From the IMG/VR virus record IMGVR_UViG_3300042445_002563: a stretch of 56,512 bases of DNA, one strand, 5' to 3'. Shown here one piece after another: positions 2 to 56,450 of the stretch. The position numbers and the translations under genes are program-made. Source of the stretch: an uncultured virus (IMG/VR IMGVR_UViG_3300042445_002563) (lineage: Duplodnaviria > Heunggongvirae > Uroviricota > Caudoviricetes). The stretch's first letter is position 1; each line of letters opens with the position of its first letter. The notes beneath the pieces were generated by a model, which saw only the letters and a list, made by a program, of their open reading frames with translations, made no database searches and had not been told where the DNA came from.

Positions 2-934
2 GGCCGATCAACCACCATGCGCTGGCTTCGCGAACATGCAGACGAAGCTGAACAACGGCAATGGGACATAATGAATCACAATGCTGCCGCAGCAGTAAAA
101 ATGATTGAACGAGTGGCCACGCTACCTCCCGAACGCAGAATGGTGCGCCTGGGTAGTGAAATGCTGCAAGGATATACTGAAGCCAGCTGGATTGACTGGT
201 GGCAGCGAACAGAGATACAAGATCATCTGGCCCGTATTTTTGCTCCTGTTGGCGAAACTGCCCGCAGACTGGGTGTGCGACTCAGCTTCCATCCCGGACA
301 GTTCTGTGTGCTGGCCAGTGAGTCGGATGAAATTGTAGAACGCAGTATCCTGGAATTTGAGTATCATGCAGACATGGCCCGTTGGATGGGCTATGGAAAA
401 ACCTGGCATGATCATGGTTTTAAAATCAACGTACATTTGTCGGGTAAAGGTGGTCCCGACAAGTTTTTGCGCACACTGGGTCGACTGACTCCTGAAGCGC
501 GAAATCTAATTACCATCGAGAATGATGAGATGACAAATGGGATTGATACTACTTTGCTTGTGGCTGAGCATGTTGCTCTTGTGCTGGATGTACACCACCA
601 CTGGATCAACTCGGGGGAATACATCACCCCCACTGACTCTCGTACAATGCGGGTTATTGAGTCTTGGCGTGGTCAGCGTCCTGCTCTTCACTACTCTGTT
701 AGTCGTGAAGATATTTTGGTTGGGCATGATCGAAGCGTTCGACCAGACCTTTCTGAACTTCTTGATCGAGGTTTTAAAAAGCAAAAGCTCCGCGCACATA
801 GTGACTTCATGTGGAATGATGCCTGCAACAAATGGGTAGTGGGGTTTGCTGACAATTTTGACATTCAGTGCGAAGCCAAGGGCAAGAATCTAGCATCCAT
901 GCAGGTGTACGAGCACTACAAACAACTAGCATGA
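2..934 (+). CDS. uvsE: UV-damage endonuclease (UvsE/UVDE family), 5' truncated by window edge
   Basis: RLSFHPGQF, ITIENDE, VLDVHHH, HYS, RAHSD, EAKGK motifs; frame is open from base 2 (GRSTTMRWL). Confidence 0.92.
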   Translation, partial: GRSTTMRWLREHADEAEQRQWDIMNHNAAAAVKMIERVATLPPERRMVRLGSEMLQGYTEASWIDWWQRTEIQDHLARIFAPVGETARRLGVRLSFHPGQFCVLASESDEIVERSILEFEYHADMARWMGYGKTWHDHGFKINVHLSGKGGPDKFLRTLGRLTPEARNLITIENDEMTNGIDTTLLVAEHVALVLDVHHHWINSGEYITPTDSRTMRVIESWRGQRPALHYSVSREDILVGHDRSVRPDLSELLDRGFKKQKLRAHSDFMWNDACNKWVVGFADNFDIQCEAKGKNLASMQVYEHYKQLA

Positions 935-1973: not shown

Positions 1974-2064
1974 AAAAAAGCCTCATGCAGTATTTACATA
2001 GGGCTTTTAAATTGTAAACCGGGCAGTTATCGCGGCTGGAACTGGTTTGCATGTTATGCAACTG

Positions 2065-2098
2065 GTGTAACAAAACTGTAATATTTGGTTGTTAAATA
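2065..2098 (+). promoter_or_regulatory. Pho-box-like direct repeat plus TAAATA upstream of pstS
   Basis: GTGTAACAAAA-CTGTAAT: TGTAAC/TGTAAT at 11-bp period (2066, 2077), similar to PhoB consensus CTGTCAT-N4-CTGTCAT; TAAATA at 2093 after a 10-bp gap. Confidence 0.75.
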
Positions 2099-2120
2099 AA
2101 TGTACTAACAAGGAGACTTT

Positions 2121-3122
2121 ATGAAACGATTTATCACAATGCTGCTGGCAGCAGTAGCAGTCACAGCTCACGCAGACATCACAGGTGCTGGTGCAACATT
2201 CCCCTACCCTATCTATGCCAAGTGGGCAGAAGCCTACAAGAAAGAAACCGGTATTGGACTCAACTATCAGTCAATTGGCAGTTCAGGTGGTATACGCCAG
2301 ATCAACAACAAAACAGTGACATTTGGTGCCAGCGATGCTCCTGTGGCAGGTGCTGAACTAGACAAGCTAGCTCAAGTACAGTTTCCCGCTATCATTGGCG
2401 GCACAGTGCCTATCGTGAACTTGGAAGGGTTTAAACCTGGAGAATTGCGTATCACTGGGCAAGTATTAGCCGAAGTGTTCTTGGGTGATATCACTCGATG
2501 GAATGACGCTAAACTAGCAGCATTGAATCCTGGTAAGAAATTGCCCGATCAACCGATCACAGTGGTTCATCGTGCTGACGGATCAGGCACAACATTCAAC
2601 TGGACTGACTACTTGACTGTGGCCAGCCCAGACTGGGCCAAGCGTGTGGGTCGTGGTGCAGCAATTAAATGGCCTGCTGTGAGCAGTATTGGTGGCAAAG
2701 GCAACGAAGGTGTTGCAGCCATTGTGAATCGTACTAAGGGCGGTATTGGTTATGTTGAGTATGCTTATGTAAAGAAAAATAACATGACCTTTATGCAACT
2801 ACAAAACAAAAATGGTAAGTTTGTCAGTCCTGATGATGTGACATTTGCAGCCGCAGCCGCAGGGGCTGATTGGTTCAGTGTGCCGGGCATGGGCTTGAGC
2901 ATCGTGGATCAAAAGGGCGATGCTGTGTGGCCAGTAACCACTGCCAGCTTTATCATCATGTACAAGAATCCAGAAGATAAAAAATCTTCAGCCGAAGTGC
3001 TCAAGTTTTTTGACTGGGCATTCCGCAATGGCAAGAAGGATGCTGCTGACCTTGACTATGTGTCATTGCCAGACAGCTTGACTCGACAAATTCGTGAACG
3101 AGTTTGGACACAAATCAAATAA
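2121..3122 (+). CDS. pstS: Phosphate ABC transporter substrate-binding protein PstS
   Basis: Signal peptide, GAGATFPYP, SIGSSGG, FGASD, HRADGSGTT, GKGNEGV, IGYVE; AAGGAG RBS. Confidence 0.97.
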   Translation: MKRFITMLLAAVAVTAHADITGAGATFPYPIYAKWAEAYKKETGIGLNYQSIGSSGGIRQINNKTVTFGASDAPVAGAELDKLAQVQFPAIIGGTVPIVNLEGFKPGELRITGQVLAEVFLGDITRWNDAKLAALNPGKKLPDQPITVVHRADGSGTTFNWTDYLTVASPDWAKRVGRGAAIKWPAVSSIGGKGNEGVAAIVNRTKGGIGYVEYAYVKKNNMTFMQLQNKNGKFVSPDDVTFAAAAAGADWFSVPGMGLSIVDQKGDAVWPVTTASFIIMYKNPEDKKSSAEVLKFFDWAFRNGKKDAADLDYVSLPDSLTRQIRERVWTQIK

Positions 3123-3167
3123 ACCGGCCGCAAAATTGAGCGGAAGCTGGAACTCGTAACCAGTACT

Positions 3168-3190
3168 AAGGGCCGCAAGGCTCTTTTTTA
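3168..3190 (+). terminator. Rho-independent terminator after pstS
   Basis: AGGGCC-GCAA-GGCTCT stem-loop followed by T run. Confidence 0.75.
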
Positions 3191-3191
3191 T

Positions 3192-3226
3192 TTGTAACAC
3201 AAGTGTAATCAAACAGGTTGTAAATA
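3192..3226 (+). promoter_or_regulatory. Second Pho-box-like direct repeat plus TAAATA upstream of plcP-like gene
   Basis: TTGTAACACAA-GTGTAAT: TGTAAC (3193) and TGTAAT (3204) at 11-bp period; GGTTG-TAAATA at 3221. Confidence 0.72.
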
Positions 3227-3230
3227 CACC

Positions 3231-4115
3231 ATGCAAAAGACTTATCGATCTATTTTTATCAGTGATGTGCATTTGGGCACCCGAGACTGTCAGGCCGGCA
3301 AGTTAAACAACTTTCTCAAACACAACACCTGCGAAACCTTGTACCTGGTAGGGGACATACTAGATGTGTGGCGCATACAACAAAACAAATGGCGTTGGAA
3401 GCAGAGTCATACCAATGTGGTTCGCCGCATACTGGGACATGCCAAACGCGGCACCAGAGTGATATATGTGGCTGGAAATCATGATGAATTCTTGAGACCG
3501 CTCATGCAGTACGGCATCAACTTTGGCAATGTGGAAGTGGTCAATCAATGTGAACACATTGGAGTAGATACCAAACATTACCTAGTCACACACGGCGACC
3601 TGTTTGATGGCATCACACGTCTAGCGCCCTGGATTGCTTTCTTGGGAGACAAAGCCTATGATTTTGTGCTTGGTCTCAACAGCAAGTTCAATTGGATCCG
3701 CCATCGCATGGGATTTGGTTACTGGAGTTTGAGTAAATATCTCAAGGGCCGTGTTAAAAAAGCAGTGGACTTTATATTTCAATTTGAAAAAAATCTAGCA
3801 ACCTACTGCAACAAGCGTGGCTATGATGGTGTGATTTGTGGTCATATTCACCATGCAGAAATCAAACTGATAGACGGCATTGTGTACATGAATGATGGCG
3901 ACTGGGTAGAATCATGTACAGCACTGGTAGAGCACCACACAGGCCAGTGGGAAATTGTTACCTGGACCAAGGAGAGTGATGATGTGGATCTTGATACTGA
4001 TAGCAACACACATAAACGACCCCGCCGATCAGCCAGGACGAATAGAGATACAGTTTCCCAACCAACAGAGTTGCGAGCAGGCTCTAAACACAGTCAAGTG
4101 GCAGTTAAAGTTTAA
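3231..4115 (+). CDS. plcP: PlcP-type phospholipase C (LpxH-like metallophosphoesterase)
   Basis: RSIFISDVHLG, LYLVGDILD-W, GNHDEFLR, THGDLFD, YWSLSKYLKGRVKKAV, ICGHIHHAE, YMNDGDWVESCTALVE match the PlcP subfamily pattern; adjacent GT4 gene. Confidence 0.85.
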   Translation: MQKTYRSIFISDVHLGTRDCQAGKLNNFLKHNTCETLYLVGDILDVWRIQQNKWRWKQSHTNVVRRILGHAKRGTRVIYVAGNHDEFLRPLMQYGINFGNVEVVNQCEHIGVDTKHYLVTHGDLFDGITRLAPWIAFLGDKAYDFVLGLNSKFNWIRHRMGFGYWSLSKYLKGRVKKAVDFIFQFEKNLATYCNKRGYDGVICGHIHHAEIKLIDGIVYMNDGDWVESCTALVEHHTGQWEIVTWTKESDDVDLDTDSNTHKRPRRSARTNRDTVSQPTELRAGSKHSQVAVKV

Positions 4116-4158
4116 AAGTTTCAAGGTAGTGAGCGAATGCAAAAAACCATCCTTATAG
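3979..4158 (+). CDS. Small secreted protein overlapping the non-conserved tail of plcP
   Basis: AAGGAG RBS at 3969, MMWILILIA signal-like start, two Cys. Confidence 0.55.
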   Translation: MMWILILIATHINDPADQPGRIEIQFPNQQSCEQALNTVKWQLKFKSFKVVSECKKPSL

Positions 4159-5144
4159 TCACAGACAACCTATATGACCAAATCAACGGTGTGGTTACGA
4201 CCTACAAAAATATTGAAGCGTGTGCGGTTCGCGACAACTATCGTGTTGTATATCTTGATCCCGGGCGGTTCCGCTATGTTGATTGCCCTGGCTACAACGA
4301 AGTCAAGATTGCCTTTCCCCGGAAAGTGGGCGCGATACTTGAGGAGATCCGTCCGGATTATATCCACATCGCCACCGAGGGTCCTGTGGGTCTGCGTGTT
4401 AGACAATATCTTGACAAACACGGTTATCGCTATAATACTGCTTACCATACTAAGTTTCCAGAAGGACTTAAAAAACTATTTGGAATTCCTGAAGCCATTA
4501 CTTGGCCTCTAGTGCGCTGGTTCCACAAGCATTCGGGCAAGGTATTGACCACCACAGAGTCCATGGTTCAAGAACTACGGGCACACGGCTTTGACGGAGA
4601 TATTGTTCCTTGGACTCGTGGTGTTGATCGTGAGATATTCAATCCTGAATCCAGAGAACCACACCAGGACACTGTGCTGGTTTGTGTGTCAAGAGTCAGC
4701 AAAGAAAAGAACCTGGAAGCATTTTGCAGCTTGGCCTACCCAGGGGCAAAAAAAATCTTAGTAGGCGATGGGCCGCATCGAGCAGAACTTCAAGAACAGT
4801 ATCCTGATGTTGAGTTTGTGGGATTCAAACGAGGAATTGCTCTGGCCTGGTACTATGCCAATGCTGATGTGTTTGTGTTTCCAAGCCGCTGGGAAACATT
4901 TGGCATTGTAATGATTGAAGCCATGGCCTGTGGTACGCCAGTAGCAGCTTATCCTTGCCAAGGACCTGAAGATGTTGTGGACCCTGGGGTTACTGGTTGT
5001 CTCAACGAAGATCTATCACAGGCCATAACAGACTGTTTGGCTCTGGACAGAAACACCGTTGTCAAAGGCAGTGAACACTGGAGTTGGGAACAGGCCTGGG
5101 TCATATTCCGAGACAACCTAGTTGAAGCCAGGCATAAAAGTTAA
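4137..5144 (+). CDS. agt: GT4 glycosyltransferase, Agt-like (glycosyl-diacylglycerol synthase)
   Basis: ILIVTD-QINGVV, IHIATEGPVG, TAYHTKFPE, WTRGVD, RVSKEKN, FVFPSRWETFGIVMIEAMACGTPVAAYP. Confidence 0.82.
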   Translation: MQKTILIVTDNLYDQINGVVTTYKNIEACAVRDNYRVVYLDPGRFRYVDCPGYNEVKIAFPRKVGAILEEIRPDYIHIATEGPVGLRVRQYLDKHGYRYNTAYHTKFPEGLKKLFGIPEAITWPLVRWFHKHSGKVLTTTESMVQELRAHGFDGDIVPWTRGVDREIFNPESREPHQDTVLVCVSRVSKEKNLEAFCSLAYPGAKKILVGDGPHRAELQEQYPDVEFVGFKRGIALAWYYANADVFVFPSRWETFGIVMIEAMACGTPVAAYPCQGPEDVVDPGVTGCLNEDLSQAITDCLALDRNTVVKGSEHWSWEQAWVIFRDNLVEARHKS

Positions 5145-5149
5145 TCAGC

Positions 5150-5875
5150 TCAAACTGAATTTTGCGGCTGTCTTGTGGTCACAGTTGCTAGTCCCACTGA
5201 TCTAAGCACAGTAATATACATCCACCCTATGTCAAACTCAAACCAACGACGGCTCAGTCGAGGGTTAGCAGGATCCAGATGATGGTTATTATGAAGACAC
5301 TCCCCACCAATAATAATACCCCAAGGCATAAGATTTCTACTGTGATCTTTGGTTTTGCCATTTCTGTATCCTATCCAGTGTCCTACTCCGTTGACTACAC
5401 CTGCTGCCCAGAACGGTATCCAGATCATTTGTATGCCCCAAATCAGCAGCCCCCACCAGCCAAACACAATTATGTTGAACACAAAGAGAATGCCAATGCC
5501 AAGTCTACTGTGAGCAGTGTATACGTTGTGCTCCATCCAATCAGCAGGAGTGCCAGCACCGTATGAATCAACCATGACTTTATCTTTGCTTGCTGCATGA
5601 TATAACATTGCTCCCTGAAACAACACCTGCCAAATACCATACACATGTGGTGTATGCGGATCGCCTTGCTGGTCACTAAATCTATGATGCTTGCGATGGA
5701 TTGCAACCCATTGTTTGGTGACCATGCCTGTGGTCAACCACAACCAGGCTCGCATGGCATGACTAATCACGGGATGAAAAGTCACGCCACGGTGTGCTTG
5801 GCCACGGTGCAAAAACAAAGTCACGCACACTATGGTAATGTGCGTGACTATCAAGGTGTAAATTAAATATGTCAT
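5150..5875 (-). CDS. Membrane fatty-acid desaturase (delta-9/DesA-like)
   Basis: His boxes HRGQAH, HRKHH, HNNHH; start MTYLIY at TAATG overlap 5875. Confidence 0.92.
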   Translation of the reverse strand: MTYLIYTLIVTHITIVCVTLFLHRGQAHRGVTFHPVISHAMRAWLWLTTGMVTKQWVAIHRKHHRFSDQQGDPHTPHVYGIWQVLFQGAMLYHAASKDKVMVDSYGAGTPADWMEHNVYTAHSRLGIGILFVFNIIVFGWWGLLIWGIQMIWIPFWAAGVVNGVGHWIGYRNGKTKDHSRNLMPWGIIIGGECLHNNHHLDPANPRLSRRWFEFDIGWMYITVLRSVGLATVTTRQPQNSV

Positions 5876-6432
5876 TACATACTTAGCGGTGCCCACAGCC
5901 ATAGGCCTTGACTCATGAGCACCAGACCTAGTGCTCCTACTCCTATTGATCCCCAATACATACGCATGTTAACTGCTAAGATACTAGCACTCAACAACAC
6001 GATTGCCAGCTGAAACAGCATGCCTGAAAAGTTTAACCAAGGACTATGTAGTCTAGCTTCGTCTCTTGCAGCTTCCTGTGCTCGTGCTTTGACCAATAAC
6101 TCTTTCTTACCTTCGCCTGTGTCAGGTTCTGATTCGTAGCGATCAATCTTGGCTTCCAGCTTGGCTACACGTTCTTTGTTGCCTGCCAGTCGTGCTTCTT
6201 CCAGTTGCCCTTCGGCTAGAGTTTGTTTGATTGATTTGGACTGATAAAATCCGTAGGTGTTAGATGCCTTCAGCAGATTGGTTTGTGCTACACTGCTGAA
6301 GTTGTTGGCAATATAGGTGTTGGCTGCCAGGAACAGGGCCATGAAAACAATTACCAGGCCTGCTCGGTCTTTGATTTGTGCTTCACGTTCTGAACGTGAG
6401 AGTGGCTTTGCTTCTTTGATTTCTTCTGCCAT
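5875..6432 (-). CDS. DUF4337-like membrane protein
   Basis: N-terminal TM, YQSKSIKQTL, GKKELL, C-terminal TM hairpin QLAIVLLSASIL. Confidence 0.7.
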   Translation of the reverse strand: MAEEIKEAKPLSRSEREAQIKDRAGLVIVFMALFLAANTYIANNFSSVAQTNLLKASNTYGFYQSKSIKQTLAEGQLEEARLAGNKERVAKLEAKIDRYESEPDTGEGKKELLVKARAQEAARDEARLHSPWLNFSGMLFQLAIVLLSASILAVNMRMYWGSIGVGALGLVLMSQGLWLWAPLSM

Positions 6433-7518: not shown

Positions 7519-9072
7519 TTATTTGTATTGACTGTCAACAATTTGTTTCCAACGAGTTTCATTGGCTCCGCCGAGTTGACGTTGTGCGGATCTGTTGTCT
7601 ACCGTGGCCTTGTAGTATTGTTTTGCCACTGTGGCACCCATGGTATCTGGCACAGTACTGTTTTGATATGCACTAAAGCCCGGCACATATCCTATTAGGC
7701 CCACCAGCAGGCCCTGTGTGGCTGTTTGTGCTTCTAGAGTTGCTGCTCGACCAATATCTTTGGCCAGTTCCTTAGCTTTTTCTGTGGCTGCTGCCCTGGC
7801 TGCTGTGGCATTGCCGCCGGCTTTCTTTTCCACACTGGCCACAGCACCTTCTGTTTTCTTGGCATCAGCTTTTTGTTCCGCTGCCGCACCAGGCGGAGGA
7901 GGTGGGGGCGGTGCAGACGCTGCGTTCATTGTGCTAGCAGCCGGCGGTGCATTGATAACTGACATAGGCGAAGTAACTGAAGTTGCTGATGTTGTGGATG
8001 GTGCTGTTACAACAGAATCCACAGTGGCATTGCCTGTGGCAGAAACCACATTGGCAGGATCATTGCGCTGAATTTCTACATTTGTGGTCAGGGCTGAATT
8101 AACCGCAGTGGTCACAGCAGGATCCAGGTTCACAAGATACTTGATGGCATAGGCAGTTTTGTATCCTTCGCATTTGTTGCTGAACAAGCTGTCTATCAAA
8201 CACTGTTGATTCAGGTAGGCTTCTGCGTAGCCTGGACAGTCAGTGGCATACAAGGGACTGGCTGTACACTGGTATGATTTATAGGCCACATCATAGCCTG
8301 GACAGTCAGTAGCATACAAGGGATTGGCACTACACTGTTGAATTTTGTAGGCTGCTGCGTATCCTGAACAAGCAGTTGAATATAGTGGATTGGCACTGCA
8401 TTGCTGGGCAGTGTAGGCCTGTTGATATCCTGCACAAGTGGTGGAACTTAGTGGATTGGCAATGCAGGGGTCTGGTGCTTCTGCACTGTACTTGAGTCTG
8501 GCATACACTGTGCTCAGTGCGGTGCCCAGGTATGGCTCACCAGTTGATGCGCCTCCATCAGTACCAGTAAATGTCATGTTGATGTGACCCATGCTGGCCA
8601 GGGGAGTTGATGAGAAGTTCACATCCTGTGCTTCGCTAATCCAGGACCACCGGCTGGTGTTGTACACATGAGTTCGGTCAAACACAGTGCTGCCACCGGT
8701 GTTGGTAACATTGACATTGGCTGTGAGTGTGTCTGCTGCTCCTGTGCCGTTGGCGCAGGTGTTTGAGTTGCCACCCACAGGATTGTTGCAGTATATGGCA
8801 AATCTCCAACCGTACTGAATACCTGTTACATTGATACCTGTGCCTGCTAGTGCAGCATTGATAGCAATAGATCGTGCAACTGATCCTTGTGTTCCAAACG
8901 AATACTGGTTTTGACCCACAACAGGATGACTGGCGTTGGATCCAGACCCTGTCACAGTCCACCCGTTCATTGTGGAAAAATTAGGGTCTGTAACCAGGTT
9001 GTCAGTTGTGCTTTGTGACTGAGCAGAAATTGCTGCCAGACTCAGCAGTGCTATTGCTATCCAGTGTTTCAT
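7519..9072 (-). CDS. Secreted protein with five 22-aa Cys repeats and Pro/Ala linker
   Basis: Signal peptide; repeats QQCxxNPLYxxxCxGYxxAY; poly-Pro tract. Confidence 0.8.
   Translation of the reverse strand: MKHWIAIALLSLAAISAQSQSTTDNLVTDPNFSTMNGWTVTGSGSNASHPVVGQNQYSFGTQGSVARSIAINAALAGTGINVTGIQYGWRFAIYCNNPVGGNSNTCANGTGAADTLTANVNVTNTGGSTVFDRTHVYNTSRWSWISEAQDVNFSSTPLASMGHINMTFTGTDGGASTGEPYLGTALSTVYARLKYSAEAPDPCIANPLSSTTCAGYQQAYTAQQCSANPLYSTACSGYAAAYKIQQCSANPLYATDCPGYDVAYKSYQCTASPLYATDCPGYAEAYLNQQCLIDSLFSNKCEGYKTAYAIKYLVNLDPAVTTAVNSALTTNVEIQRNDPANVVSATGNATVDSVVTAPSTTSATSVTSPMSVINAPPAASTMNAASAPPPPPPPGAAAEQKADAKKTEGAVASVEKKAGGNATAARAAATEKAKELAKDIGRAATLEAQTATQGLLVGLIGYVPGFSAYQNSTVPDTMGATVAKQYYKATVDNRSAQRQLGGANETRWKQIVDSQYK
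8149..8472 (-). repeat. Degenerate 66-nt coding tandem repeat, five units
   Basis: Repeated CxxNPLYxxxCxGYxxAY units. Confidence 0.8.
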
Positions 9073-13130: not shown

Positions 13131-13712
13131 ATGAACATGGCCACAGACAACACACAACAACTTGAACAAACGCACACACAAGCCTTGGCCGACAACGGTA
13201 TGCATGTGTTTATGGGCGAGGTAGACAATGAGCACATACAGCCCATTGTGGAATGGATCTTGCATGAAAATTTTGTGGTTAAAAAACGCAAAAAAGAACT
13301 CTTGCTGATGATCTGCTCCGAAGGTGGTGACATGAGCACTGCCTTTGCCTTGATTGATGTCATGCGCAGCAGCAACATTCCTGTAAAAACTGTGGGCCTG
13401 GGCCAAATTGGATCAGCTGGCCTGTTGATATTTCTAGCAGGCTCGCCGGGACGTAGAATACTTACTCCCAACACCAGTATCTTGAGTCACCAGTTCAGCT
13501 GGGGCAGTGATGGCAAGGTACATGAATTGTTTGCCACAATGAAAGAATTTGAGCTTACACAAAAACGCATGGTACAGCACTACAAGGATTGTACCGGGCT
13601 CGATGATGAAACAATTCGAGCCAAGTTGTTGCCACCACATGATGTTTGGCTCAGTGCTCAAGAAGCCCTGGCACTGAACATCTGCGATGCTATTTCTGAA
13701 CTGGCTCGCTGA
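13131..13712 (+). CDS. Divergent ClpP-family protease
   Basis: ICSEGGD, GQIGSAG (Ser), SHQF (His), HDVWLSAQEAL (Asp). Confidence 0.88.
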   Translation: MNMATDNTQQLEQTHTQALADNGMHVFMGEVDNEHIQPIVEWILHENFVVKKRKKELLLMICSEGGDMSTAFALIDVMRSSNIPVKTVGLGQIGSAGLLIFLAGSPGRRILTPNTSILSHQFSWGSDGKVHELFATMKEFELTQKRMVQHYKDCTGLDDETIRAKLLPPHDVWLSAQEALALNICDAISELAR

Positions 13713-20409: not shown

Positions 20410-20775
20410 ATGGACTTGATCATGGAGTTTTTAGAACTGGCTGGATATGTTGCAATTGCATATGGCATTGTTAGATGGATGACCAAAACGGCCGTGCCAA
20501 GTGAGACCAACCAGGTCCTGACCGAAATCCAGGATGGTAGCTTGATACCACTCACTGTTGAACTTGACAACAATACCTTTTTGTGCTATAATATGTTAAC
20601 AAAGGAATTTGTGTGTCAGGGCAATGATCTCAACGAGATCATGAAACGGTTCACTGAACGATTCCCTGACACAATGTTGTCCTTTTATGATGACAACAGT
20701 GTCGCAGTCAAAATCTTGAACGAACAACGCAGGAGTTTACTTGAAAATCGCAATTGCATCGGACCTACACCTTGA
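20410..20775 (+). CDS. Hypothetical protein with N-terminal TM
   Basis: GAGG RBS; EFVCQG. Confidence 0.7.
   Translation: MDLIMEFLELAGYVAIAYGIVRWMTKTAVPSETNQVLTEIQDGSLIPLTVELDNNTFLCYNMLTKEFVCQGNDLNEIMKRFTERFPDTMLSFYDDNSVAVKILNEQRRSLLENRNCIGPTP
20564..20592 (+). promoter_or_regulatory. Intragenic perfect-consensus sigma70 promoter
   Basis: TTGACA-N17-TATAAT with TGn, inside CDS 20410-20775. Confidence 0.7.
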
Positions 20776-21619
20776 ATTTGGTGACCTGGAGTTTGACAAC
20801 AGCAGCCACGCTGATGTGTTGATCCTGAGTGGCGATATCCTTGTGGCCCGAGATATCACACAACATGATCCCCACAACATCATGGGAACAGAATACCGTA
20901 GCAATCGATATCACAACTTTATGCAACGCTGCTGTGAACAGTTTGCTCATGTGATCTACGTCATGGGTAATCACGAACACTATCATCATGACTTTGCCAA
21001 GACCGAAAGTCATCTCAAAGATGTGCTTGGTTACCTGAAAAACTTGTATATCCTTGAGCGTGAAATCAAGGTCATTGACAACGTTACCTTTGTTGGTGGC
21101 ACGTTATGGACTGACATGAACCAGGAAGATCCGCTGACCTTGTACCACATGAAGAGCATGATGAATGATTTCAGGATCATCAGCAACAGCAACAAACAGG
21201 TCAATTATAGAACTTTTGATGATGTTGACAATCCTGAAAAACCAACTTTTAGAACTCGGGAGGCCAAATTCAGCCCGGAGGATTCAGTAGAACAACATCG
21301 TATGTTTGTGGCCTACCTTCAACACTGTGTTGAAGGCCGAGCAGATCAAAAGTTTGTGGTGGCGGGGCATCATGCACCCAGCAGACTCAGCACACATGCA
21401 CAGTATGCCAACGCCACTCTGATGAACGGTGCCTACCGTTCAGACTTGGATGAATACATTCAGGATCATCCGCAGATTCGACTGTGGACTCATGGGCACA
21501 CGCATCACAATTTTGACTACATGATTGGCGAAACTAGAGTGGTATGTAACCCGCGTGGTTATCATGGGCATGAGCAACAGGCCGCTACCTGGCAACTGCA
21601 AACCGTGGAGATTCAATGA
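20741..21619 (+). CDS. Calcineurin-like metallophosphoesterase
   Basis: SDLHLEF, LSGD, GNHEHY, TLWTD, HHAP, HGHTH, CNPRGY; TTG start after AGGAG. Confidence 0.92.
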   Translation: MKIAIASDLHLEFGDLEFDNSSHADVLILSGDILVARDITQHDPHNIMGTEYRSNRYHNFMQRCCEQFAHVIYVMGNHEHYHHDFAKTESHLKDVLGYLKNLYILEREIKVIDNVTFVGGTLWTDMNQEDPLTLYHMKSMMNDFRIISNSNKQVNYRTFDDVDNPEKPTFRTREAKFSPEDSVEQHRMFVAYLQHCVEGRADQKFVVAGHHAPSRLSTHAQYANATLMNGAYRSDLDEYIQDHPQIRLWTHGHTHHNFDYMIGETRVVCNPRGYHGHEQQAATWQLQTVEIQ

Positions 21620-50710: not shown

Positions 50711-51469
50711 ATGCACAAACCAACCCACAATCAGACTGTAAGGTCGTTGCAGATAACTAATCATCTGCTGAGTTTGGCTGGAATTTTTTATGTGGTTTAT
50801 ACATCACAATGGATTTGGTTATTGACAGCATTGTTGACTTATTGGTTCATTGGAGTTTTTGGAATAAACATTGGACTTCACCGACTGTTGAGTCACAGAA
50901 GTTTTAAAACTTATTCCTGGTTTGAAAAATTTGTAAGCGTAATTGGAGTCATCACAACTGTGGGATCTCCCTTGGCCTGGGTGGCTATTCATAGGCAGCA
51001 TCATCGTGCTGCTGAAACTCCTGAAGACCCCCATAGTCCGTATCAAATTGGTAACTTACGTGCCTGGTTTGGTATCTGGTCCCTGATTAAATTAGATACT
51101 AAACTAGTAAGAGACATGAGGCAAGATCGTTTTCAGCGTTGGTTGCATCGCAACTATATCTGGGTAATTGCTGTCTATGCGTTGATATTATTGACGTTAT
51201 GGGGGCCATTGGGCGTGATTTTTGGATATTGTTTGCCCGCCCTGTTGTGTTTACACTCAAGCAGTGCAATCATTGTGATTGCTCACAGGCATGGTTACAA
51301 GACACACAAATGTCGTGACGAAAGCCGTAACAGCTGGATTGCCAATATTATTACTCTGGGCGAAGGATGGCACAACAATCATCATGCCAAGCCATACGCC
51401 TGGAGTAACTGGGAAAAGTGGTGGGAATGGGATGTTCCTGCAGTGATTATCTGGGCAATTAAAAAATGA
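50711..51469 (+). CDS. Fatty-acid desaturase 1 of tandem array
   Basis: HRLLSH, HRQHH, DPHSP, GEGWHNNHH; TAAATA at 50683. Confidence 0.93.
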   Translation: MHKPTHNQTVRSLQITNHLLSLAGIFYVVYTSQWIWLLTALLTYWFIGVFGINIGLHRLLSHRSFKTYSWFEKFVSVIGVITTVGSPLAWVAIHRQHHRAAETPEDPHSPYQIGNLRAWFGIWSLIKLDTKLVRDMRQDRFQRWLHRNYIWVIAVYALILLTLWGPLGVIFGYCLPALLCLHSSSAIIVIAHRHGYKTHKCRDESRNSWIANIITLGEGWHNNHHAKPYAWSNWEKWWEWDVPAVIIWAIKK

Positions 51470-52182
51470 CATTTTATTATTTCTCAAGATTATTGCAAGT
51501 TATAACATTTGCATTTTCTCTGTATGTGTTTGATTGGCAGTATTTTATAATTGCAGTTGTTGTAGGCTGGGTGCTGGCTGGTTTCAGTATAAGTGTAATT
51601 TTGCATAGACAAATTTGCCACAATGCATTCAAATTCAGAAATAAACTAGTAGAATTTTTGAGTTATACAATATTGGTTATTACTGGCCAAAGCTCACCGT
51701 TGTCCTGGGCTATAATACATCGACAACATCACTTGCATACTGACACAGAACTAGACCCACAGAGTCATCGAATTGTAGGGCATTGGCGCACATTGTTTTC
51801 TTGGTACAAGCCTAACAAAGTAAATCCTAGACAAGTAGTTGATCTATTGGCAAATACCAGAGTGATGTTTTTGCATCGGCACATAGATAAACTATTTTTA
51901 ACTTATGCTGCAATTATGATAGCAGTTAGCCCAATACTATTTTTGTATGCTGTTGGTGTGGTCCCTGTCGTTGCCTATTTGTTTATTGGTATAATCAACA
52001 CATTTGGACACCGTGATGAACAACGCATACACGGCACCTATGCTGCTAATTTGCCATTTGCTGCAATGTTTTGGGGAGAGAGCTATCACAAAACACACCA
52101 CTTGACTCCCAGGGCCCAGCAACTAGGTCAATACGATTTTGGTTTTTACATAATACAAATATTGAAAAAACAACATGAATAA
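51466..52182 (+). CDS. Fatty-acid desaturase 2 of tandem array
   Basis: HRQICH, HRQHH, GESYHKTHH. Confidence 0.88.
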   Translation: MTFYYFSRLLQVITFAFSLYVFDWQYFIIAVVVGWVLAGFSISVILHRQICHNAFKFRNKLVEFLSYTILVITGQSSPLSWAIIHRQHHLHTDTELDPQSHRIVGHWRTLFSWYKPNKVNPRQVVDLLANTRVMFLHRHIDKLFLTYAAIMIAVSPILFLYAVGVVPVVAYLFIGIINTFGHRDEQRIHGTYAANLPFAAMFWGESYHKTHHLTPRAQQLGQYDFGFYIIQILKKQHE

Positions 52183-52933
52183 ACATGCAATGCTAGTTAT
52201 TGTCCCATTCCATCTTTTGGCCGTGGTGGGGTTGTTTTTTGTTGACCAGTATTGGCCCTGGGCAATCGCGTTCTTTGTGCTTTTTGGAATCATTGGCAAC
52301 GGGGTCGCTGGACACAGATATTTTGCGCACAGATCTTTTCAGGTGGCCAAGTGGTTGCATCCAGTATTGACCTACCTCAATGTTATGTCTGCATTTGCAC
52401 CACCCACATACTGGGTGATACAACATGCACATCATCACAGAACATCAGACAAGAACGAAGATATTCATAGCCCTCGACGAGGACTTTGGCAATCTTGGTA
52501 TGGGTGGTTGTTTGATCAGCCCTATGTAGAATTTATGTTGAGTAACAAAATGGCAGTGGCCAAGGCAGTGATCAAAAGCCGAGTACAGTGGGTTGAACGG
52601 CATTACTACAAAACATTATTTGTGTCTATTGCTATAGTTGCTGTGATAAATTGGCAAGTTGCATTGATGTATTTTGTTGCGTATGCTGCTGAAATGTTTA
52701 GAATTGGTGCAGTAAACACAGTTTGTCATAGTTGGGGTTATAGAAATCATGACACATCAGATCACAGCAAAAATAACATTTTGGTGGGCATTCTGGGCAT
52801 GGGATTTGGTTGGCACAACAATCATCATGCTAATCCTTCACGCTTGATACTTACCGAACGCTGGTGGGAGATCGACATAGAAGGATACATAGCCTGGCTA
52901 TTGAGTAGAACACATCAAGGAAAAATTCAATGA
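52175..52933 (+). CDS. Fatty-acid desaturase 3 of tandem array
   Basis: HRYFAH, HAHHH, GWHNNHH. Confidence 0.92.
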   Translation: MNKHAMLVIVPFHLLAVVGLFFVDQYWPWAIAFFVLFGIIGNGVAGHRYFAHRSFQVAKWLHPVLTYLNVMSAFAPPTYWVIQHAHHHRTSDKNEDIHSPRRGLWQSWYGWLFDQPYVEFMLSNKMAVAKAVIKSRVQWVERHYYKTLFVSIAIVAVINWQVALMYFVAYAAEMFRIGAVNTVCHSWGYRNHDTSDHSKNNILVGILGMGFGWHNNHHANPSRLILTERWWEIDIEGYIAWLLSRTHQGKIQ

Positions 52934-53706
52934 CATATTATCGAAAACATTTTTTTGCAGTTATTTGTGTGCAGATGATGCTGGCAGGTGTAGCTGTTAC
53001 AGATTTAGCTGTAAACGGCACAACGATATGGTTGTATGCAACATTTATCATGTGGTTCTTGATGTACGTGGTCGGAGAAGGCATTTTCCTACACAGATAT
53101 TTTGCACACAAATCTTTTGAAACTCATCCTGTACTAGCAAAAGTTTTTTCAGTATTTGCAGCACTTGGCGGATTTGGCGGCCCAATTGGTTATCGCGCAG
53201 CTCATATAGGATTACATCATGCGCACTCAGACAAACCTGGAGATTGCCACAGTCCTGTACAAAATGGATTCTGGTACGCAGCAGTGACCTGGCATTTGCA
53301 TAACCATAAATTGCCCATGTTACTCTGCAAGTCGCTGCTGAGAGATCCATTTTACGTCTGGTTGGAAAATCATGTCATCAGCATTTGGTGGACCACACTT
53401 GTGGTATTTGCTTTTATTGACATGAGATTAGCTGTGTATGGTCTAGGGTTAGCAGGATTTATAGGATTTGTATTTGTTGCAATTACAAATGCCGCGGCTC
53501 ATACCTACGGCACACGCAGATTTCAAACCGACGACAACAGCCGTAATATATCCATCCTGAGTTGGATAACTTGGCAGGGATCATCAGTACTGCAAAACAA
53601 TCATCATGCACATCCTGGACGATTTCACGACAGCTGGGCCTGGTATGAGTTCGACATTGGAAAATGGTTGATTCCACTGATAGCCACCCGAATAAATCAA
53701 AGATAG
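52930..53706 (+). CDS. Fatty-acid desaturase 4 of tandem array (variant boxes)
   Basis: HRYFAH, HIGLHH, QNNHH. Confidence 0.88.
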   Translation: MTYYRKHFFAVICVQMMLAGVAVTDLAVNGTTIWLYATFIMWFLMYVVGEGIFLHRYFAHKSFETHPVLAKVFSVFAALGGFGGPIGYRAAHIGLHHAHSDKPGDCHSPVQNGFWYAAVTWHLHNHKLPMLLCKSLLRDPFYVWLENHVISIWWTTLVVFAFIDMRLAVYGLGLAGFIGFVFVAITNAAAHTYGTRRFQTDDNSRNISILSWITWQGSSVLQNNHHAHPGRFHDSWAWYEFDIGKWLIPLIATRINQR

Positions 53707-55001: not shown

Positions 55002-55587
55002 CGCAGACGGCGTGTTGCTGGACTGGGAATGGGCATTTTCAGTTTGGATGCAGGAGCGTGGGTACACACTCACCGCAGACAACAAGAAAAGCTATCTGCT
55101 GCATCATCACTACCGTGAACTGGAAGAAAAAGACGCCAAAAAGGTTGTAAAAACCTTCAACGAATCGGCTGCTGTGGGCTTCTTGCCTGCCTTGCGTGAT
55201 GCCACCTACTATGTCAAACGCCTGTATGAAGAACACGGCTATCAGTTTCGAGTGATCACCAGTCTGAGCCTGGACCGAAATGCTGCCAAGCTGAGAGAAA
55301 TGAACCTGAACAAACTGTTTGGTAATGCAATTGAAAGTGTGATTTGCCTGGACACCGGCGCAGACAAAGATTCAGCACTAGAACCCTATCGTGGCAGCGG
55401 CATGTGGTGGATTGAGGACAAGCCCGAAAATGCTGATGTCGGCCATGCACTGGGGCTACGGAGTCTCTTAATAGAACACGGGCACAACATGCATCATGTG
55501 TGTCCGTATCCTGTTGTTAAAAATTGGAAAGAGATCTATTCTATAATTGCTCCTAGTGAGAATACAGTCTCAACACATCACCAATAA
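54976..55587 (+). CDS. HAD-superfamily 5'(3')-nucleotidase-like phosphatase
   Basis: DADGVLLD, VITS, K, WIEDK; AAGGA RBS gives start MNQRL. Confidence 0.85.
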   Translation: MNQRLILTDADGVLLDWEWAFSVWMQERGYTLTADNKKSYLLHHHYRELEEKDAKKVVKTFNESAAVGFLPALRDATYYVKRLYEEHGYQFRVITSLSLDRNAAKLREMNLNKLFGNAIESVICLDTGADKDSALEPYRGSGMWWIEDKPENADVGHALGLRSLLIEHGHNMHHVCPYPVVKNWKEIYSIIAPSENTVSTHHQ

Positions 55588-56290: not shown

Positions 56291-56450
56291 ATGCATTTCT
56301 CCTGGTGTAAGTCCTCTTGGACACTAATATTTACAGTAACGTACTCAATGATAAGTGGGTGGTGATTTTTAATATCTGGATCATAAGTATTTGGCTTTGT
56401 TCCTGATATTCAAGATACAAGCTATCATGTTCGGTGCCATAAATACTTTC

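What the first reader, a model, noticed from the sequence alone, without database searches (positions are those of the whole stretch)
2065..5144. Phage-encoded, Pho-regulated phospholipid-to-glycolipid remodelling module (pstS, plcP, agt)
Seen: pstS, a metallophosphoesterase with the PlcP-subfamily pattern and an Agt-type GT4 glycosyltransferase lie in a row, with an 11-bp-period TGTAAC/TGTAAT repeat before both pstS and plcP. Established: in bacteria (Sinorhizobium SMc00171, SAR11, P. aeruginosa PA3219/PA3218) PhoB-induced PlcP cleaves phospholipids to diacylglycerol and Agt glycosylates it to P-free glycolipids. Inference: the phage imports phosphate and also mines it from the host membrane for DNA synthesis, back-filling the membrane with glycolipid. 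Phage pstS is well known; I know of no characterised phage-borne PlcP-Agt pair, but cannot verify novelty. Automated annotation would probably call these LpxH and a generic glycosyltransferase.
Basis: partly seen in the sequence, partly recalled or inferred. Interest (0 to 1): 0.92.

Follow-up and report, generated by a model that had tools for sequence, protein, structure and literature searches.

The report
Phage-borne phosphate-stress membrane lipid-swap genes
A very large uncultured freshwater phage carries, behind phosphate-starvation-type control sites, a phosphate-binding protein and the bacterial enzyme pair that removes the phosphate head from membrane lipids and puts a sugar in its place, so it can probably draw phosphorus from its host's membrane.

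Summary
pstS (2121-3122), a PlcP-type metallophosphoesterase (3231-4115) and an Agt-type GT4 glycosyltransferase (4137-5144) lie in a row. TGTAAY-N5-TGTAAY occurs only twice in the whole 98.9-kb virus record, once before pstS and once before plcP (0.02 expected in the window).

The esterase is not LpxH. It scores 43 bits against a cut-off of 134, but 388 bits against a profile of bacterial agt-adjacent PlcP-type proteins. Those bacteria carry a true LpxH elsewhere.

The glycosyltransferase is 38-47% identical to bacterial plcP-adjacent Agt proteins and keeps their DAG-binding residues. It has Glu where they have the catalytic Asp.

At least 585 viral stretches encode the esterase and 420 the transferase. 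Of 75 transferase loci with room upstream, 71 have plcP directly upstream. dN/dS is 0.06-0.18.

Best reading: a host-PhoB-driven phosphate-uptake and phospholipid-to-glycolipid module. Activity, regulation and purpose are inferred.

I found no paper on it; viral surveys list the esterase as lpxH. Earlier agents of this scan noted the same module on other DNA (74 notes, at least 72 genomes).

The parts
2066..2082 (+). Pho-box-like direct repeat TGTAAC-N5-TGTAAT before pstS
   Evidence: one of only 2 matches in the window and in the whole 98.9-kb record. The strict motif is present in 19 of 25 distinct pstS upstream regions of related viral loci.
2093..2098 (+). TAAATA, -10-like hexamer 10 nt after the repeat (inferred)
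   Evidence: Read. The spacing fits PhoB-type promoters, in which the box replaces the -35 element (recalled knowledge). No sigma-70 -35/-10 pair was found here.
2121..3122 (+). pstS, periplasmic phosphate-binding protein with an N-terminal signal-peptide-like stretch (MKRFITMLLAAVAVTAHA)
   Evidence: NF008171 397 bits (cut-off 339) and TIGR00975 365 bits (cut-off 205). phrog_5385 'phosphate transporter subunit'. An AAGGAG Shine-Dalgarno lies before the ATG.
3168..3185 (+). Terminator-like hairpin plus T-run after pstS
   Evidence: 7 pairs, GCAA loop, T-run; sequence. It separates pstS from the plcP promoter.
3193..3209 (+). Pho-box-like direct repeat TGTAAC-N5-TGTAAT before plcP
   Evidence: The strict motif is in 49 of 123 distinct plcP upstream regions of related viral loci, and in 0 of 86 agt and 0 of 27 desA upstream regions.
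3221..3226 (+). TAAATA, 11 nt after the repeat and 4 nt before the plcP ATG; no Shine-Dalgarno (possible leaderless start, inferred)
   Evidence: TAAATA lies 4-8 nt before the ATG in 81 of 123 plcP upstream regions (11 nt in one more), and an SD-like sequence in only 6 of 123. Only 2 ORFs of the window show this arrangement. Phage Mosig has the same TAAATA-N5-ATG.
3231..4115 (+). plcP-type metallophosphoesterase (predicted phospholipase C); catalytic core residues 1-250, disordered tail 250-294
   Evidence: All metallophosphoesterase motifs are kept: D12, H14, D42, N83, H84, H121, H205, H207. LpxH models 43 and 30 bits, below their cut-offs. 388 bits to a profile of 43 bacterial agt-adjacent PlcP-type proteins. 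AF2 pLDDT 84; the nearest solved fold is LpxH at 16-21% identity.
4137..5144 (+). agt-type GT4 diacylglycerol glycosyltransferase (predicted), 21 nt after plcP, no promoter motif of its own
   Evidence: GT4 domains. 38-47% identity to bacterial plcP-adjacent genes and best reciprocal match. H104, T160-R161, W317 and SRVSKEKN are kept; FPSRWETFG has E253 for the clade's Asp. AF2 pLDDT 91.6, GT-B fold.
5150..5956 (-). DesA-family fatty-acid desaturase, convergent with agt (likely start at the ATG at 5875); possible accessory of the lipid island
   Evidence: NF049918 384 bits (cut-off 400); PF00487. A DesA homologue lies within the fetched flanks of plcP or agt in many related loci, for example plcP-agt-desA all on one strand in L014, L015 and L104.

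Best explanation
This is an auxiliary metabolic island of an uncultured freshwater jumbo phage. The record is 98.9 kb and is estimated at 29% of the genome.

Proposed mechanism:
- When the infected cell is phosphate-starved, the host's PhoB response regulator binds the two 11-nt-spaced TGTAAY repeats. These stand where a -35 element would be, before pstS and before plcP. (Inferred.)
- PstS is exported and feeds phosphate to the host PstCAB transporter.
- The PlcP-type enzyme cuts the phospho-head group off membrane phospholipids and leaves diacylglycerol.
- The Agt-type GT4 is co-transcribed 21 nt downstream. It puts a sugar from a UDP-sugar on the diacylglycerol, giving phosphorus-free glycolipid.

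Net effect: membrane phosphorus becomes available for replicating a very large DNA genome while the membrane stays intact.

Shown here: the gene identities by homology, the operon logic, the conservation and the motif statistics. Inferred: the enzyme activities, PhoB dependence and the purpose.
For: Identity of the esterase:
- All metallophosphoesterase motifs are intact.
- It fails the LpxH equivalogs: 43 bits against a cut-off of 134.
- 4 of 5 bacterial genomes searched hold a true LpxH at 213-333 bits. In 3 of them the phage-like gene at the locus scores only 38-54 bits.
- It scores 388 bits on a profile of 43 bacterial agt-adjacent proteins. On that profile three of the 4 true LpxH score 17-36 bits and the fourth is not found.
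- In the quick tree, the 27 uncultured-phage rows form one clade (SH-aLRT 99) inside the bacterial PlcP-type proteins, with LpxH on distant long branches.
- Its identity to Pseudomonas and Burkholderiales homologues is 45-57%. Characterised PlcPs share 46-47% with each other (passages of bioRxiv 10.1101/2021.04.14.439775).

Identity of the transferase:
- Bacterial homologues at 38-47% identity lie directly downstream of plcP in 42 of 73 eligible loci.
- It is the best match of that gene in 4 of 4 genomes with the pair (225-261 bits). The next match is 122 bits, and generic GT4 proteins score 45 or less.
- The DAG-binding residues reported for the Pelagibacter enzyme are kept.

Coupling of the two genes:
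- Of 75 viral Agt loci with room upstream, 71 have plcP within 300 nt upstream and the other 4 within 1.5 kb.
- Natural fusions exist in both orders: L193, 621 aa, PlcP-GT4; P0208 and P0175, GT4-PlcP.

Selection: dN/dS is 0.06-0.18 for pstS, plcP and agt.

Regulation:
- The motif has 2 matches in 98.9 kb, both at these promoters.
- It is shared by 19 of 25 pstS and 49 of 123 plcP upstream regions, and by 0 of 86 agt and 0 of 27 desA regions.
- Bacterial plcP upstream regions carry GTCAY repeats of the same period in 36 of 80 cases, against 0 of 80 inside the genes.
- One bacterial promoter (L204) mixes TGTAAT, TGTAAC and TGTCAT boxes in register.
- The published consensus is CTGTCATNNNNCTGTCAT.

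Viral setting:
- Head-maturation protease, tail-fibre and structural PHROGs lie on the same window.
- G+C is even across the window.
- Relatives lie on IMG/VR contigs of up to 524 kb.

Precedent in bacteria: the plcP-agt(-dagK) operon is induced by phosphate depletion, and agt alone makes MGDG and GADG in E. coli (passages of PMC13691135; PMC4796936).
Against: - No activity, transcript start or regulator binding was measured.
- The repeat has A where the Pho-box consensus has C. It matches only 9-10 of 14 consensus positions, so PhoB recognition is not assured.
- The transferase has Glu253 where the characterised Agt clade has Asp. In the Pelagibacter enzyme, D256E lost over 90% of activity. 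104 of 111 viral copies share this Glu, so the donor or the product may differ.
- 45 of 75 related plcP loci have no agt within the fetched flank. Glycolipid back-filling is therefore not obligatory, and plcP alone may be the core function.
- No named, characterised PlcP or Agt sequence could be fetched. The link to them runs through operon synteny and published identity figures.
- The tree is a quick search with long outgroup branches. The careful search did not finish.
- The host is unknown.
Confidence: 0.65

Rival explanations
1. The enzymes do convert phospholipid to glycolipid, but the benefit is not phosphorus supply. The phage changes the envelope for another reason: to block superinfection or adsorption of other phages, or to keep membranes stable during a long infection. 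Phosphate release is a by-product.
For: Host lipid renovation is discussed as altering membrane proteins that serve as phage receptors (passages of PMC9804370). It is linked to phage attachment trade-offs in the title and abstract listing of PMC9938194. The island also holds a DesA-type desaturase, and the window holds four more desaturase-family genes. That points to broader membrane tailoring than phosphorus economy alone.
Against: pstS and plcP share the same rare promoter motif. They are neighbours also in the marine phage Mosig. Both facts tie plcP to phosphate acquisition. 45 of 75 plcP loci lack agt, so the head-group cleavage, not the new lipid, is the conserved step.
Confidence: 0.2
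2. The repeat is not read by host PhoB. It is read by a phage-encoded regulator or another OmpR-family regulator, so the module follows the infection programme or another signal rather than phosphate status.
For: Position 5 of each heptad is A, not the consensus C, in all strict matches. Only about 29% of the genome is in hand, so a phage regulator could lie elsewhere.
Against: No Trans_reg_C (PhoB/OmpR DNA-binding) domain was found in the 98.9 kb. The motif marks exactly the two Pho-regulon homologues. Bacterial plcP promoters carry repeats of the same period, and one mixes TGTAAY with TGTCAT. From recall, E. coli phoE has a CTGTAAT half-site.
Confidence: 0.2
3. The esterase is a true lipid A enzyme (LpxH or LpxG-like) and the GT4 an LPS or polysaccharide glycosyltransferase. 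Together they alter LPS, as automatic annotation implies.
For: JGI and GenBank names say LpxH. The nearest solved folds are LpxH, which take the top 25 listed ranks at TM about 0.49/0.58. Viral surveys file such genes under LPS biosynthesis (passages).
Against: - It scores far below both LpxH cut-offs.
- The bacterial counterparts coexist with a true LpxH.
- A PlcP-type profile gives 388 bits against 36 or less for true LpxH.
- No other lpx gene was seen on the record in the Pfam scans of 32 window ORFs and 30 flank ORFs.
- The GT4 pairs with plcP, not with LPS genes.
Confidence: 0.03
4. The block is host DNA in a mis-assembled or mis-classified contig, or a decaying passenger without function in the phage.
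For: The record is a metagenomic fragment with many host-like genes (ClpX, ClpP, Lon-like protease, RNR).
Against: - At least 585 and 420 viral stretches encode the two proteins.
- The phage copies form one clade only 45-57% identical to any bacterial copy.
- dN/dS is 0.06-0.18.
- G+C is 0.46, like the rest of the window.
- Phage-specific neighbours (UvdE, DUF4337, orf195) recur beside the block in other contigs such as L085, L141 and L160.
Confidence: 0.02

Closest known systems
Bacterial PhoB-regulated plcP-agt lipid-renovation operons: P. aeruginosa PA3219-PA3218; B. cenocepacia BCAL2364-2366; Phaeobacter MED193; SAR11 HTCC7211
   Same: - Same two protein families in the same order, with a short gap between them.
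- A Pho-box-type repeat lies upstream.
- Identities of 45-57% (PlcP) and 38-47% (Agt) are within the range that characterised members share with each other.
   Different: - It is encoded by a virus, beside a viral pstS.
- Repeat units are TGTAAY, not TGTCAY.
- plcP has TAAATA 4 nt before the ATG and no Shine-Dalgarno.
- Agt has W-E in place of T-D in the FPSxTDTFG motif.
- There is no dagK.
- PlcP has a 45-residue disordered tail.
LpxH (UDP-2,3-diacylglucosamine diphosphatase), PDB 5B49, 5K8K, 6PH9
   Same: Calcineurin-like core with a helical insertion. It is the nearest solved fold and the source of the automatic name.
   Different: 16-21% identity. It scores below the LpxH equivalog cut-offs. 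It is a separate paralogue in bacteria that also have LpxH. Its operon partner is a DAG glycosyltransferase, not an lpx gene.
Agt/GTcp clade of GT4 (A. tumefaciens Atu2297; Pelagibacter HTCC7211 GTcp, PMC8231724)
   Same: About 335 aa with a GT-B fold. His104, Thr-Arg (160-161), Trp317 and the xRVxxEKN motif are kept.
   Different: Glu253 stands in place of the catalytic Asp256. This holds in 104 of 111 viral copies, and in only 5 of 41 bacterial plcP-adjacent copies.
Phage pstS (and phoA) as Pho-regulated auxiliary genes of cyanophages (recalled: Zeng and Chisholm 2012)
   Same: A phage carries pstS behind a host-type Pho box and exploits the host two-component system.
   Different: Here the same control site also drives a lipid head-group hydrolase and a glycolipid synthase. 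The phage is a freshwater jumbo phage of a probable proteobacterial host.
Pelagibacter phage Mosig EXVC030M gene Mosig_00120 and Synechococcus phage S-SRM01 QPX48289 (both deposited as LpxH-type hydrolases)
   Same: PlcP-type homologues in cultured phages: 48% and 37% identity, and 350 and 193 bits on the PlcP-type profile. In Mosig the gene is divergent from pstS, with TTAAC repeats of 11-nt period and TAAATA-N5-ATG.
   Different: Neither has an agt neighbour. Passages searched in their genome papers do not mention the gene.

Membership tests
PlcP (metallophosphoesterase-type phospholipase C of lipid renovation) | Intact calcineurin-like metal and catalytic motifs (DxH, GD, GNHD/E, H, GHxH) | tested here: met
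   D12, H14, G41-D42, G82-N83-H84-D85, H121, G204-H205 and H207 are invariant in a 41-row alignment. PF00149 match.
PlcP (metallophosphoesterase-type phospholipase C of lipid renovation) | A paralogue distinct from LpxH | tested here: met
   43 and 30 bits against cut-offs of 134 and 190. True LpxH at 213-333 bits lies elsewhere in 4 of 5 bacterial genomes. On the PlcP-type profile it scores 388 bits, against 17-36 bits or no hit for 4 true LpxH.
PlcP (metallophosphoesterase-type phospholipase C of lipid renovation) | Operon with a gene for phosphorus-free lipid synthesis (agt type) | tested here: met
   agt starts 21 nt downstream. The pair is adjacent in 71 of 75 viral Agt loci and in 42 of 73 bacterial loci. 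Fusions exist.
PlcP (metallophosphoesterase-type phospholipase C of lipid renovation) | Pho box in the promoter | tested here: inconclusive
   Two heptads with an 11-nt period lie 11 nt before a -10-like TAAATA. Only 9 of 14 positions match CTGTCATNNNNCTGTCAT, and binding is untested.
PlcP (metallophosphoesterase-type phospholipase C of lipid renovation) | BLASTP E < 1e-40 to Phaeobacter MED193_17359, the working criterion of Sebastian et al. (PMC4796936 legend) | not testable with these tools
PlcP (metallophosphoesterase-type phospholipase C of lipid renovation) | Releases diacylglycerol from phospholipids | not testable with these tools
   Needs an enzyme assay or lipidomics.
Agt/GTcp clade of GT4 diacylglycerol glycosyltransferases | GT4 family, GT-B fold, about 335 aa | tested here: met
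   PF13439, PF00534 and PF13692. AF2 pLDDT 91.6; top PDB matches are the retaining GT4 enzymes BshA, MshA and PimA.
Agt/GTcp clade of GT4 diacylglycerol glycosyltransferases | Clusters with plcP-adjacent Agt proteins and is far from other GT4 (clade members are under 25% identical to other GT4, PMC8231724) | tested here: met
   38-47% identity to plcP-adjacent genes. These genes are its best match at 225-261 bits, while other GT4 proteins of the same genomes score 45 or less.
Agt/GTcp clade of GT4 diacylglycerol glycosyltransferases | DAG-binding and catalytic His104, Thr162, Arg163 and Trp320 of GTcp | tested here: met
   H104, T160-R161 and W317 are present. H104 and W317 are invariant in 26 rows. 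WTRGV is found in 107 of 111 viral copies.
Agt/GTcp clade of GT4 diacylglycerol glycosyltransferases | UDP-sugar motifs GRVAxEKN and FPSxTDTFG, with the catalytic Asp256 | tested here: not met
   The first motif is kept as SRVSKEKN. The second reads FPSRWETFG, with Glu253 for Asp. D256E cost GTcp over 90% of its activity. This lowers strict clade membership, not the working analogy.
Agt/GTcp clade of GT4 diacylglycerol glycosyltransferases | Makes MGDG and/or GADG from DAG and a UDP-sugar | not testable with these tools
   Needs expression and lipidomics.
LpxH | Scores above the curated equivalog cut-off | tested here: not met
   NF003743 43 bits (cut-off 134); TIGR01854 29.6 bits (cut-off 190.35).
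PstS | Scores above the curated equivalog cut-off | tested here: met
   NF008171 397.2 bits (cut-off 339); TIGR00975 365.3 bits (cut-off 205).

The most novel reading that the evidence does not exclude
A large, abundant clade of freshwater jumbo phages, and some marine and cyanobacterial myophages, hijack the host's PhoB switch to dismantle the host's own phospholipid membrane for phosphorus during infection.

In this reading plcP is expressed from a leaderless, Pho-box-driven promoter. The membrane is rebuilt with a glycolipid made by a virus-specific Glu-type Agt. That enzyme's sugar donor may be supplied by the phage's own UDP-glucose dehydrogenase-like gene, which lies 3.4 kb upstream of pstS.

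Viral 'lpxH' entries in aquatic AMG surveys would then mostly be misread plcP genes. Virus-driven lipid remodelling would be an unrecognised term in lake and ocean phosphorus cycling.
Probability: 0.4. Interest if true: 0.85.

Novelty: new variant of a known kind. Interest (0 to 1): 0.72.

Why it matters
Phage pstS is a textbook auxiliary gene. A phage that also turns the host's membrane phospholipid into a phosphorus source is not in the literature I could search.

If true, it matters in four ways:
- It adds a new route by which viruses reshape cellular phosphorus budgets in phosphorus-limited lakes and seas.
- It changes what infected cells are made of: glycolipid in place of phospholipid. 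That matters for grazers, for lipid biomarkers and for adsorption of other phages.
- It corrects a systematic mis-annotation, since viral 'lpxH' is filed under LPS synthesis.
- The family is large. At least 585 viral stretches encode the esterase, and single 90%-identity clusters hold up to 2,167 member sequences. The effect could therefore be quantitatively relevant.

The prediction can be tested directly by expression in laboratory E. coli with lipidomics.

Tried and rejected
- **Complex prediction.** The job on PlcP (1-250) with Agt gave no verdict, so it is evidence neither way.
- **Careful tree.** The IQ-TREE search did not finish in two 300-s runs. Only the quick tree is used.
- **DNA search of the phage collection.** Window 2000-6000 gave only five short matches of 73-93 nt at 76-80% identity.
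- **Sequence search of PDB with the esterase.** It gave only two weak LpxH hits, E 0.034 and 0.28.
- **T4-type late promoter.** I considered that TAAATA before plcP is a general late promoter of this phage. I rejected this because TAAATA occurs 26 times on both strands of the window, about chance, and precedes only 2 ORF starts.
- **One-mismatch repeat sites.** The sites at 963 and 18595 are at chance level.
- **Phage-encoded PhoB.** No PF00486 domain was found in the 98.9 kb. The record is a fragment, so absence is not shown.
- **RNA runs.** Three freshwater, lake and sediment metatranscriptome runs from three studies held only 5-6% of the sampled words. When laid, they give short contigs over the region, mostly 90-99% alike with a minority at 88-90%. 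They cover 30, 18 and 11 of 30 bins, and one contig bridges the plcP-agt junction at 4041-4225. These are contigs of relatives in RNA libraries that may contain DNA, so they show presence in such samples, not transcription.
- **Papers.** Searches with PlcP+phage, 'lipid remodelling'+PlcP+viral, LpxH+phage+'auxiliary metabolic', and phage-encoded+'phospholipase C'+'lipid remodeling'+phosphate found no description of a viral PlcP or Agt. A fifth search, on jumbo phage terms, gave nothing relevant.

Full report
**What the window is.** The window is bases 21584-78095 of a 98,929-bp IMG/VR virus record that CheckV rates 29% complete, which implies a genome of about 340 kb. The window carries:
- a head-maturation protease (phrog_94)
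- tail-fibre and structural-protein matches
- a clamp loader and PhoH
- ClpP and a DNA polymerase fragment

The flanks of the record hold ribonucleotide reductase, ligase, ClpX, Hsp20 and a Lon-like protease. G+C is 0.41-0.50 throughout and 0.46 over the finding. Relatives of the finding's genes lie on viral contigs of up to 524 kb. This is a jumbo phage, not a host fragment.

**The observation.** TGTAAY-N5-TGTAAY occurs at 2066-2082 and at 3193-3209 and nowhere else in the window or in the whole record. The window expectation is 0.02. A hairpin with a T-run at 3168-3185 ends pstS, so plcP has its own promoter. agt follows plcP after 21 nt and has no motif of its own.

**pstS.** It passes both PstS equivalog cut-offs: 397 bits against 339, and 365 against 205. 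It begins with a signal-peptide-like stretch, as read.

**The esterase is PlcP-type, not LpxH.**
- All metallophosphoesterase motifs are invariant in a 41-row alignment.
- The two LpxH equivalogs give 43 and 30 bits against cut-offs of 134 and 190.
- A search of 1.84 billion cluster representatives found 6,274 related clusters, 893 of them at E of 1e-30 or better.
- A profile scan of one genome per species returned 590 relatives. The best 80 are 45-57% identical and come from Burkholderiales, Pseudomonas, Rhodospirillales and others.
- I searched five of those genomes with the LpxH model. Four hold a true LpxH at 213-333 bits at another place. In three, the phage-like gene rings at only 38-54 bits.
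- A profile built from 43 bacterial agt-adjacent homologues scores the window protein at 388 bits. It scores 26 other uncultured-phage copies at 378-396, Mosig at 350 and S-SRM01 at 193. Three true LpxH score 17-36, and one true LpxH and the window's second metallophosphoesterase are not found.
- In a quick maximum-likelihood tree of 74 rows, the 27 uncultured-phage rows form one clade (SH-aLRT 99) nested among bacterial PlcP-type proteins. The nearest neighbours are Mosig with a Hyphomonas protein and a Pseudomonas group. LpxH sits on very long branches. The careful search did not finish.
- The AF2 model (pLDDT 84) has the esterase core, a helical insertion at 127-196 and a disordered tail at 250-294. 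The top 25 listed solved matches are all LpxH, at 16-21% identity. No PlcP structure appeared.

**The transferase is Agt-type, with one departure.**
- It is a GT4, GT-B enzyme.
- Its bacterial relatives at 38-47% identity sit directly downstream of plcP in 42 of 73 eligible loci, and elsewhere in the locus in 3.
- In the four searched genomes that have the pair, the plcP-adjacent gene is the best match at 225-261 bits. The runner-up scores 122 bits, and ordinary GT4 proteins score 45 or less. In the fifth genome, which has no adjacent agt, the best match is 103 bits elsewhere.
- The paper on the Pelagibacter enzyme (passages) names a His104-Asp256 dyad, the motifs GRVAxEKN and FPSxTDTFG, and DAG-binding His104, Thr162, Arg163 and Trp320.
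- The window protein has H104, T160-R161, W317 and SRVSKEKN, but its second motif reads FPSRWETFG.
- Across 111 viral copies, 104 read xWETFG, 5 keep Asp and 2 gave no match. Across 41 bacterial copies, 31 keep Asp, 5 read SETFG and 5 gave no match.
- The Glu is therefore a fixed trait of this viral clade. Since D256E crippled the Pelagibacter enzyme, the viral enzyme may differ in donor or product.

**Synteny.** I analysed the best 80 loci of each search, which are not random samples.
- Of 79 Agt-anchored loci, 75 have at least 1.1 kb upstream. Of those, 71 have plcP within 300 nt and 4 have it within 1.5 kb.
- Of 80 PlcP-anchored loci, 75 have at least 1.2 kb downstream. Of those, 21 have agt adjacent, 9 have it further downstream in the locus and 45 have none.

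So agt never travels without plcP, while plcP often travels alone. pstS sits before, after or away from the pair. Fused PlcP-GT4 and GT4-PlcP proteins exist in bacteria and metagenomes. dN/dS against near relatives is 0.06-0.09 for plcP, 0.10-0.18 for agt and 0.10-0.15 for pstS.

**Promoters.**
- The strict repeat is present in 49 of 123 distinct plcP upstream regions and 19 of 25 pstS regions. It is present in 0 of 86 agt and 0 of 27 desA regions. Many other plcP regions carry a TTTAAC-N5-TGTAAC variant.
- TAAATA lies 4-8 nt before the plcP ATG in 81 of 123 regions (11 nt in one more).
- The repeat ends 11 nt (32 cases) or 21-22 nt (27 cases) before that TAAATA.
- Only 6 of 123 plcP regions have a Shine-Dalgarno-like word. 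This compares with 21 of 25 for pstS and 48 of 86 for agt.
- In the window only plcP and one other ORF have TAAATA this close to the start.
- The marine phage Mosig shows TTAAC repeats of 11-nt period and TAAATA-N5-ATG before its plcP-type gene, which is divergent from pstS.

I read this as a PhoB-type promoter, with the box replacing the -35 element, that yields a leaderless or nearly leaderless plcP mRNA. That is inference. Bacterial plcP upstream regions carry GTCAY repeats of the same period in 36 of 80 cases. This compares with 0 of 80 inside the genes and 0.3 in shuffles. One of them mixes TGTAAT, TGTAAC and TGTCAT.

**Surroundings.**
- A DesA-family desaturase (384 bits, cut-off 400) converges on agt.
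- Four tandem ORFs at 50711-53706 are desaturase-family paralogues. Three match PF00487 and the fourth matches only phrog_35201.
- A UDP-glucose dehydrogenase-like gene lies 3.4 kb upstream of pstS, outside the window. It scores 281 bits on phrog_9148, but 135 bits on TIGR03026, below the cut-off of 189.8. It could supply UDP-glucuronate, and it lies within 6 kb of plcP or agt in 7 of 159 related loci.

**How it most likely works, and rivals.** See the structured fields for the full argument. A rough budget from recalled figures shows the scale. A 340-kb duplex holds about 0.7 million phosphorus atoms, and an E. coli-sized cell holds about 20 million phospholipid molecules. The membrane is therefore worth some tens of genomes, and fewer in small lake bacteria. 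That is meaningful for a jumbo phage but not sufficient alone.

**Literature.**
- I read passages of PMC4796936, PMC13691135, PMC8231724, bioRxiv 10.1101/2021.04.14.439775, PMC9804370, PMC6030836 and PMC12981677.
- I read passages of three viral surveys or phage papers that list 'lpxH' under LPS synthesis: PMC13384950, PMC9611531 and PMC10653327.
- I read passages of the Mosig and S-SRM01 genome papers (PMC7892664, PMC8557907), which do not mention the gene.
- No search found a viral PlcP or Agt. Supplements were not opened.

**Earlier notes of this scan.** One search returned 74 notes from at least 72 genomes for the search words. Seven of the eight shown describe the same module on other phage DNA and agree with this reading.

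**Limits.**
- No named reference enzyme could be compared directly.
- The host is unknown. There are two weak hints to Burkholderiales. PstS is 73% and 67% identical to PstS in two Burkholderiaceae MAG loci. A TctC-family binding protein lies on the record.
- Everything on function is prediction.

Noticed in passing
window 50711-53706 (+): Four tandem ORFs of 238-258 aa are desaturase-family paralogues. Three match PF00487 and all four match phrog_35201, a family of unknown function. With the DesA-type gene at 5150-5956 the window holds five desaturase-family genes, which is unusual for a phage.
   Followed up: partly
L253:18460-19710 (G000:C1:18460-19710, 3.4 kb upstream of pstS, outside the window): A UDP-glucose dehydrogenase-like gene. 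It scores 281 bits on phrog_9148, but 135 bits on TIGR03026, below the cut-off of 189.8. It could supply UDP-glucuronate for a glucuronosyl-diacylglycerol. It lies within the fetched flanks in 7 of 159 related viral loci.
   Followed up: partly
L193:4989-6851 (Burkholderiales MAG); proteins P0208, P0175: Natural fusions of the PlcP-type esterase and a GT4 transferase exist in both domain orders. This is Rosetta-stone support for a functional link.
   Followed up: partly
window 3221-3233; L001:4975-4995: TAAATA lies 4-5 nt before the plcP ATG with no Shine-Dalgarno. The arrangement is conserved from this freshwater clade to the marine phage Mosig. It suggests a leaderless mRNA. Several bacterial plcP promoters also leave almost no room for a leader.
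   Followed up: partly
L086 versus window 2121-5144: Divergence is mosaic within the module. pstS is 98% identical (dS 0.10), plcP 95% (dS 0.59) and agt 82% (dS 0.70) in the same contig. This suggests recombination between cassettes.
   Followed up: no
window 20741-21619 (+) and L253:16008-16799 (-): Two further calcineurin-like phosphoesterases lie on the record. One matches phrog_1649 at 175 bits; the other is a weak 'acc_ester' match. Neither is PlcP-type.
   Followed up: partly
window 7519-9072 (-): A 517-aa protein with a signal-peptide-like start and four or five tandem Cys-bearing repeats (QQCSANPLY.T.C.GY...), followed by an Ala/Pro-rich stretch. It has no Pfam or PHROG match.
   Followed up: no
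window 17-934 (+), 55553-56296 (-), 5875-6432 (-): A UvdE-type UV endonuclease (102 bits PF03851), PhoH (phrog_170) and a DUF4337 membrane protein flank the island. UvdE and DUF4337 recur beside plcP-agt in other viral contigs. phoH has no Pho-box-like repeat.
   Followed up: partly
L255:6438-7424 (+), outside the window: A TctC-family (tripartite tricarboxylate transporter) periplasmic binding protein. From recall, this family is greatly expanded in Burkholderiales, so it is a weak hint to the host.
   Followed up: no
window 13131-13712; L253:13616-14821; L253:15182-15643; L255:13695-16079: The phage carries its own ClpP, ClpX, Hsp20 and a Lon-like ATP-dependent protease (phrog_4871, 787 bits).
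   Followed up: no
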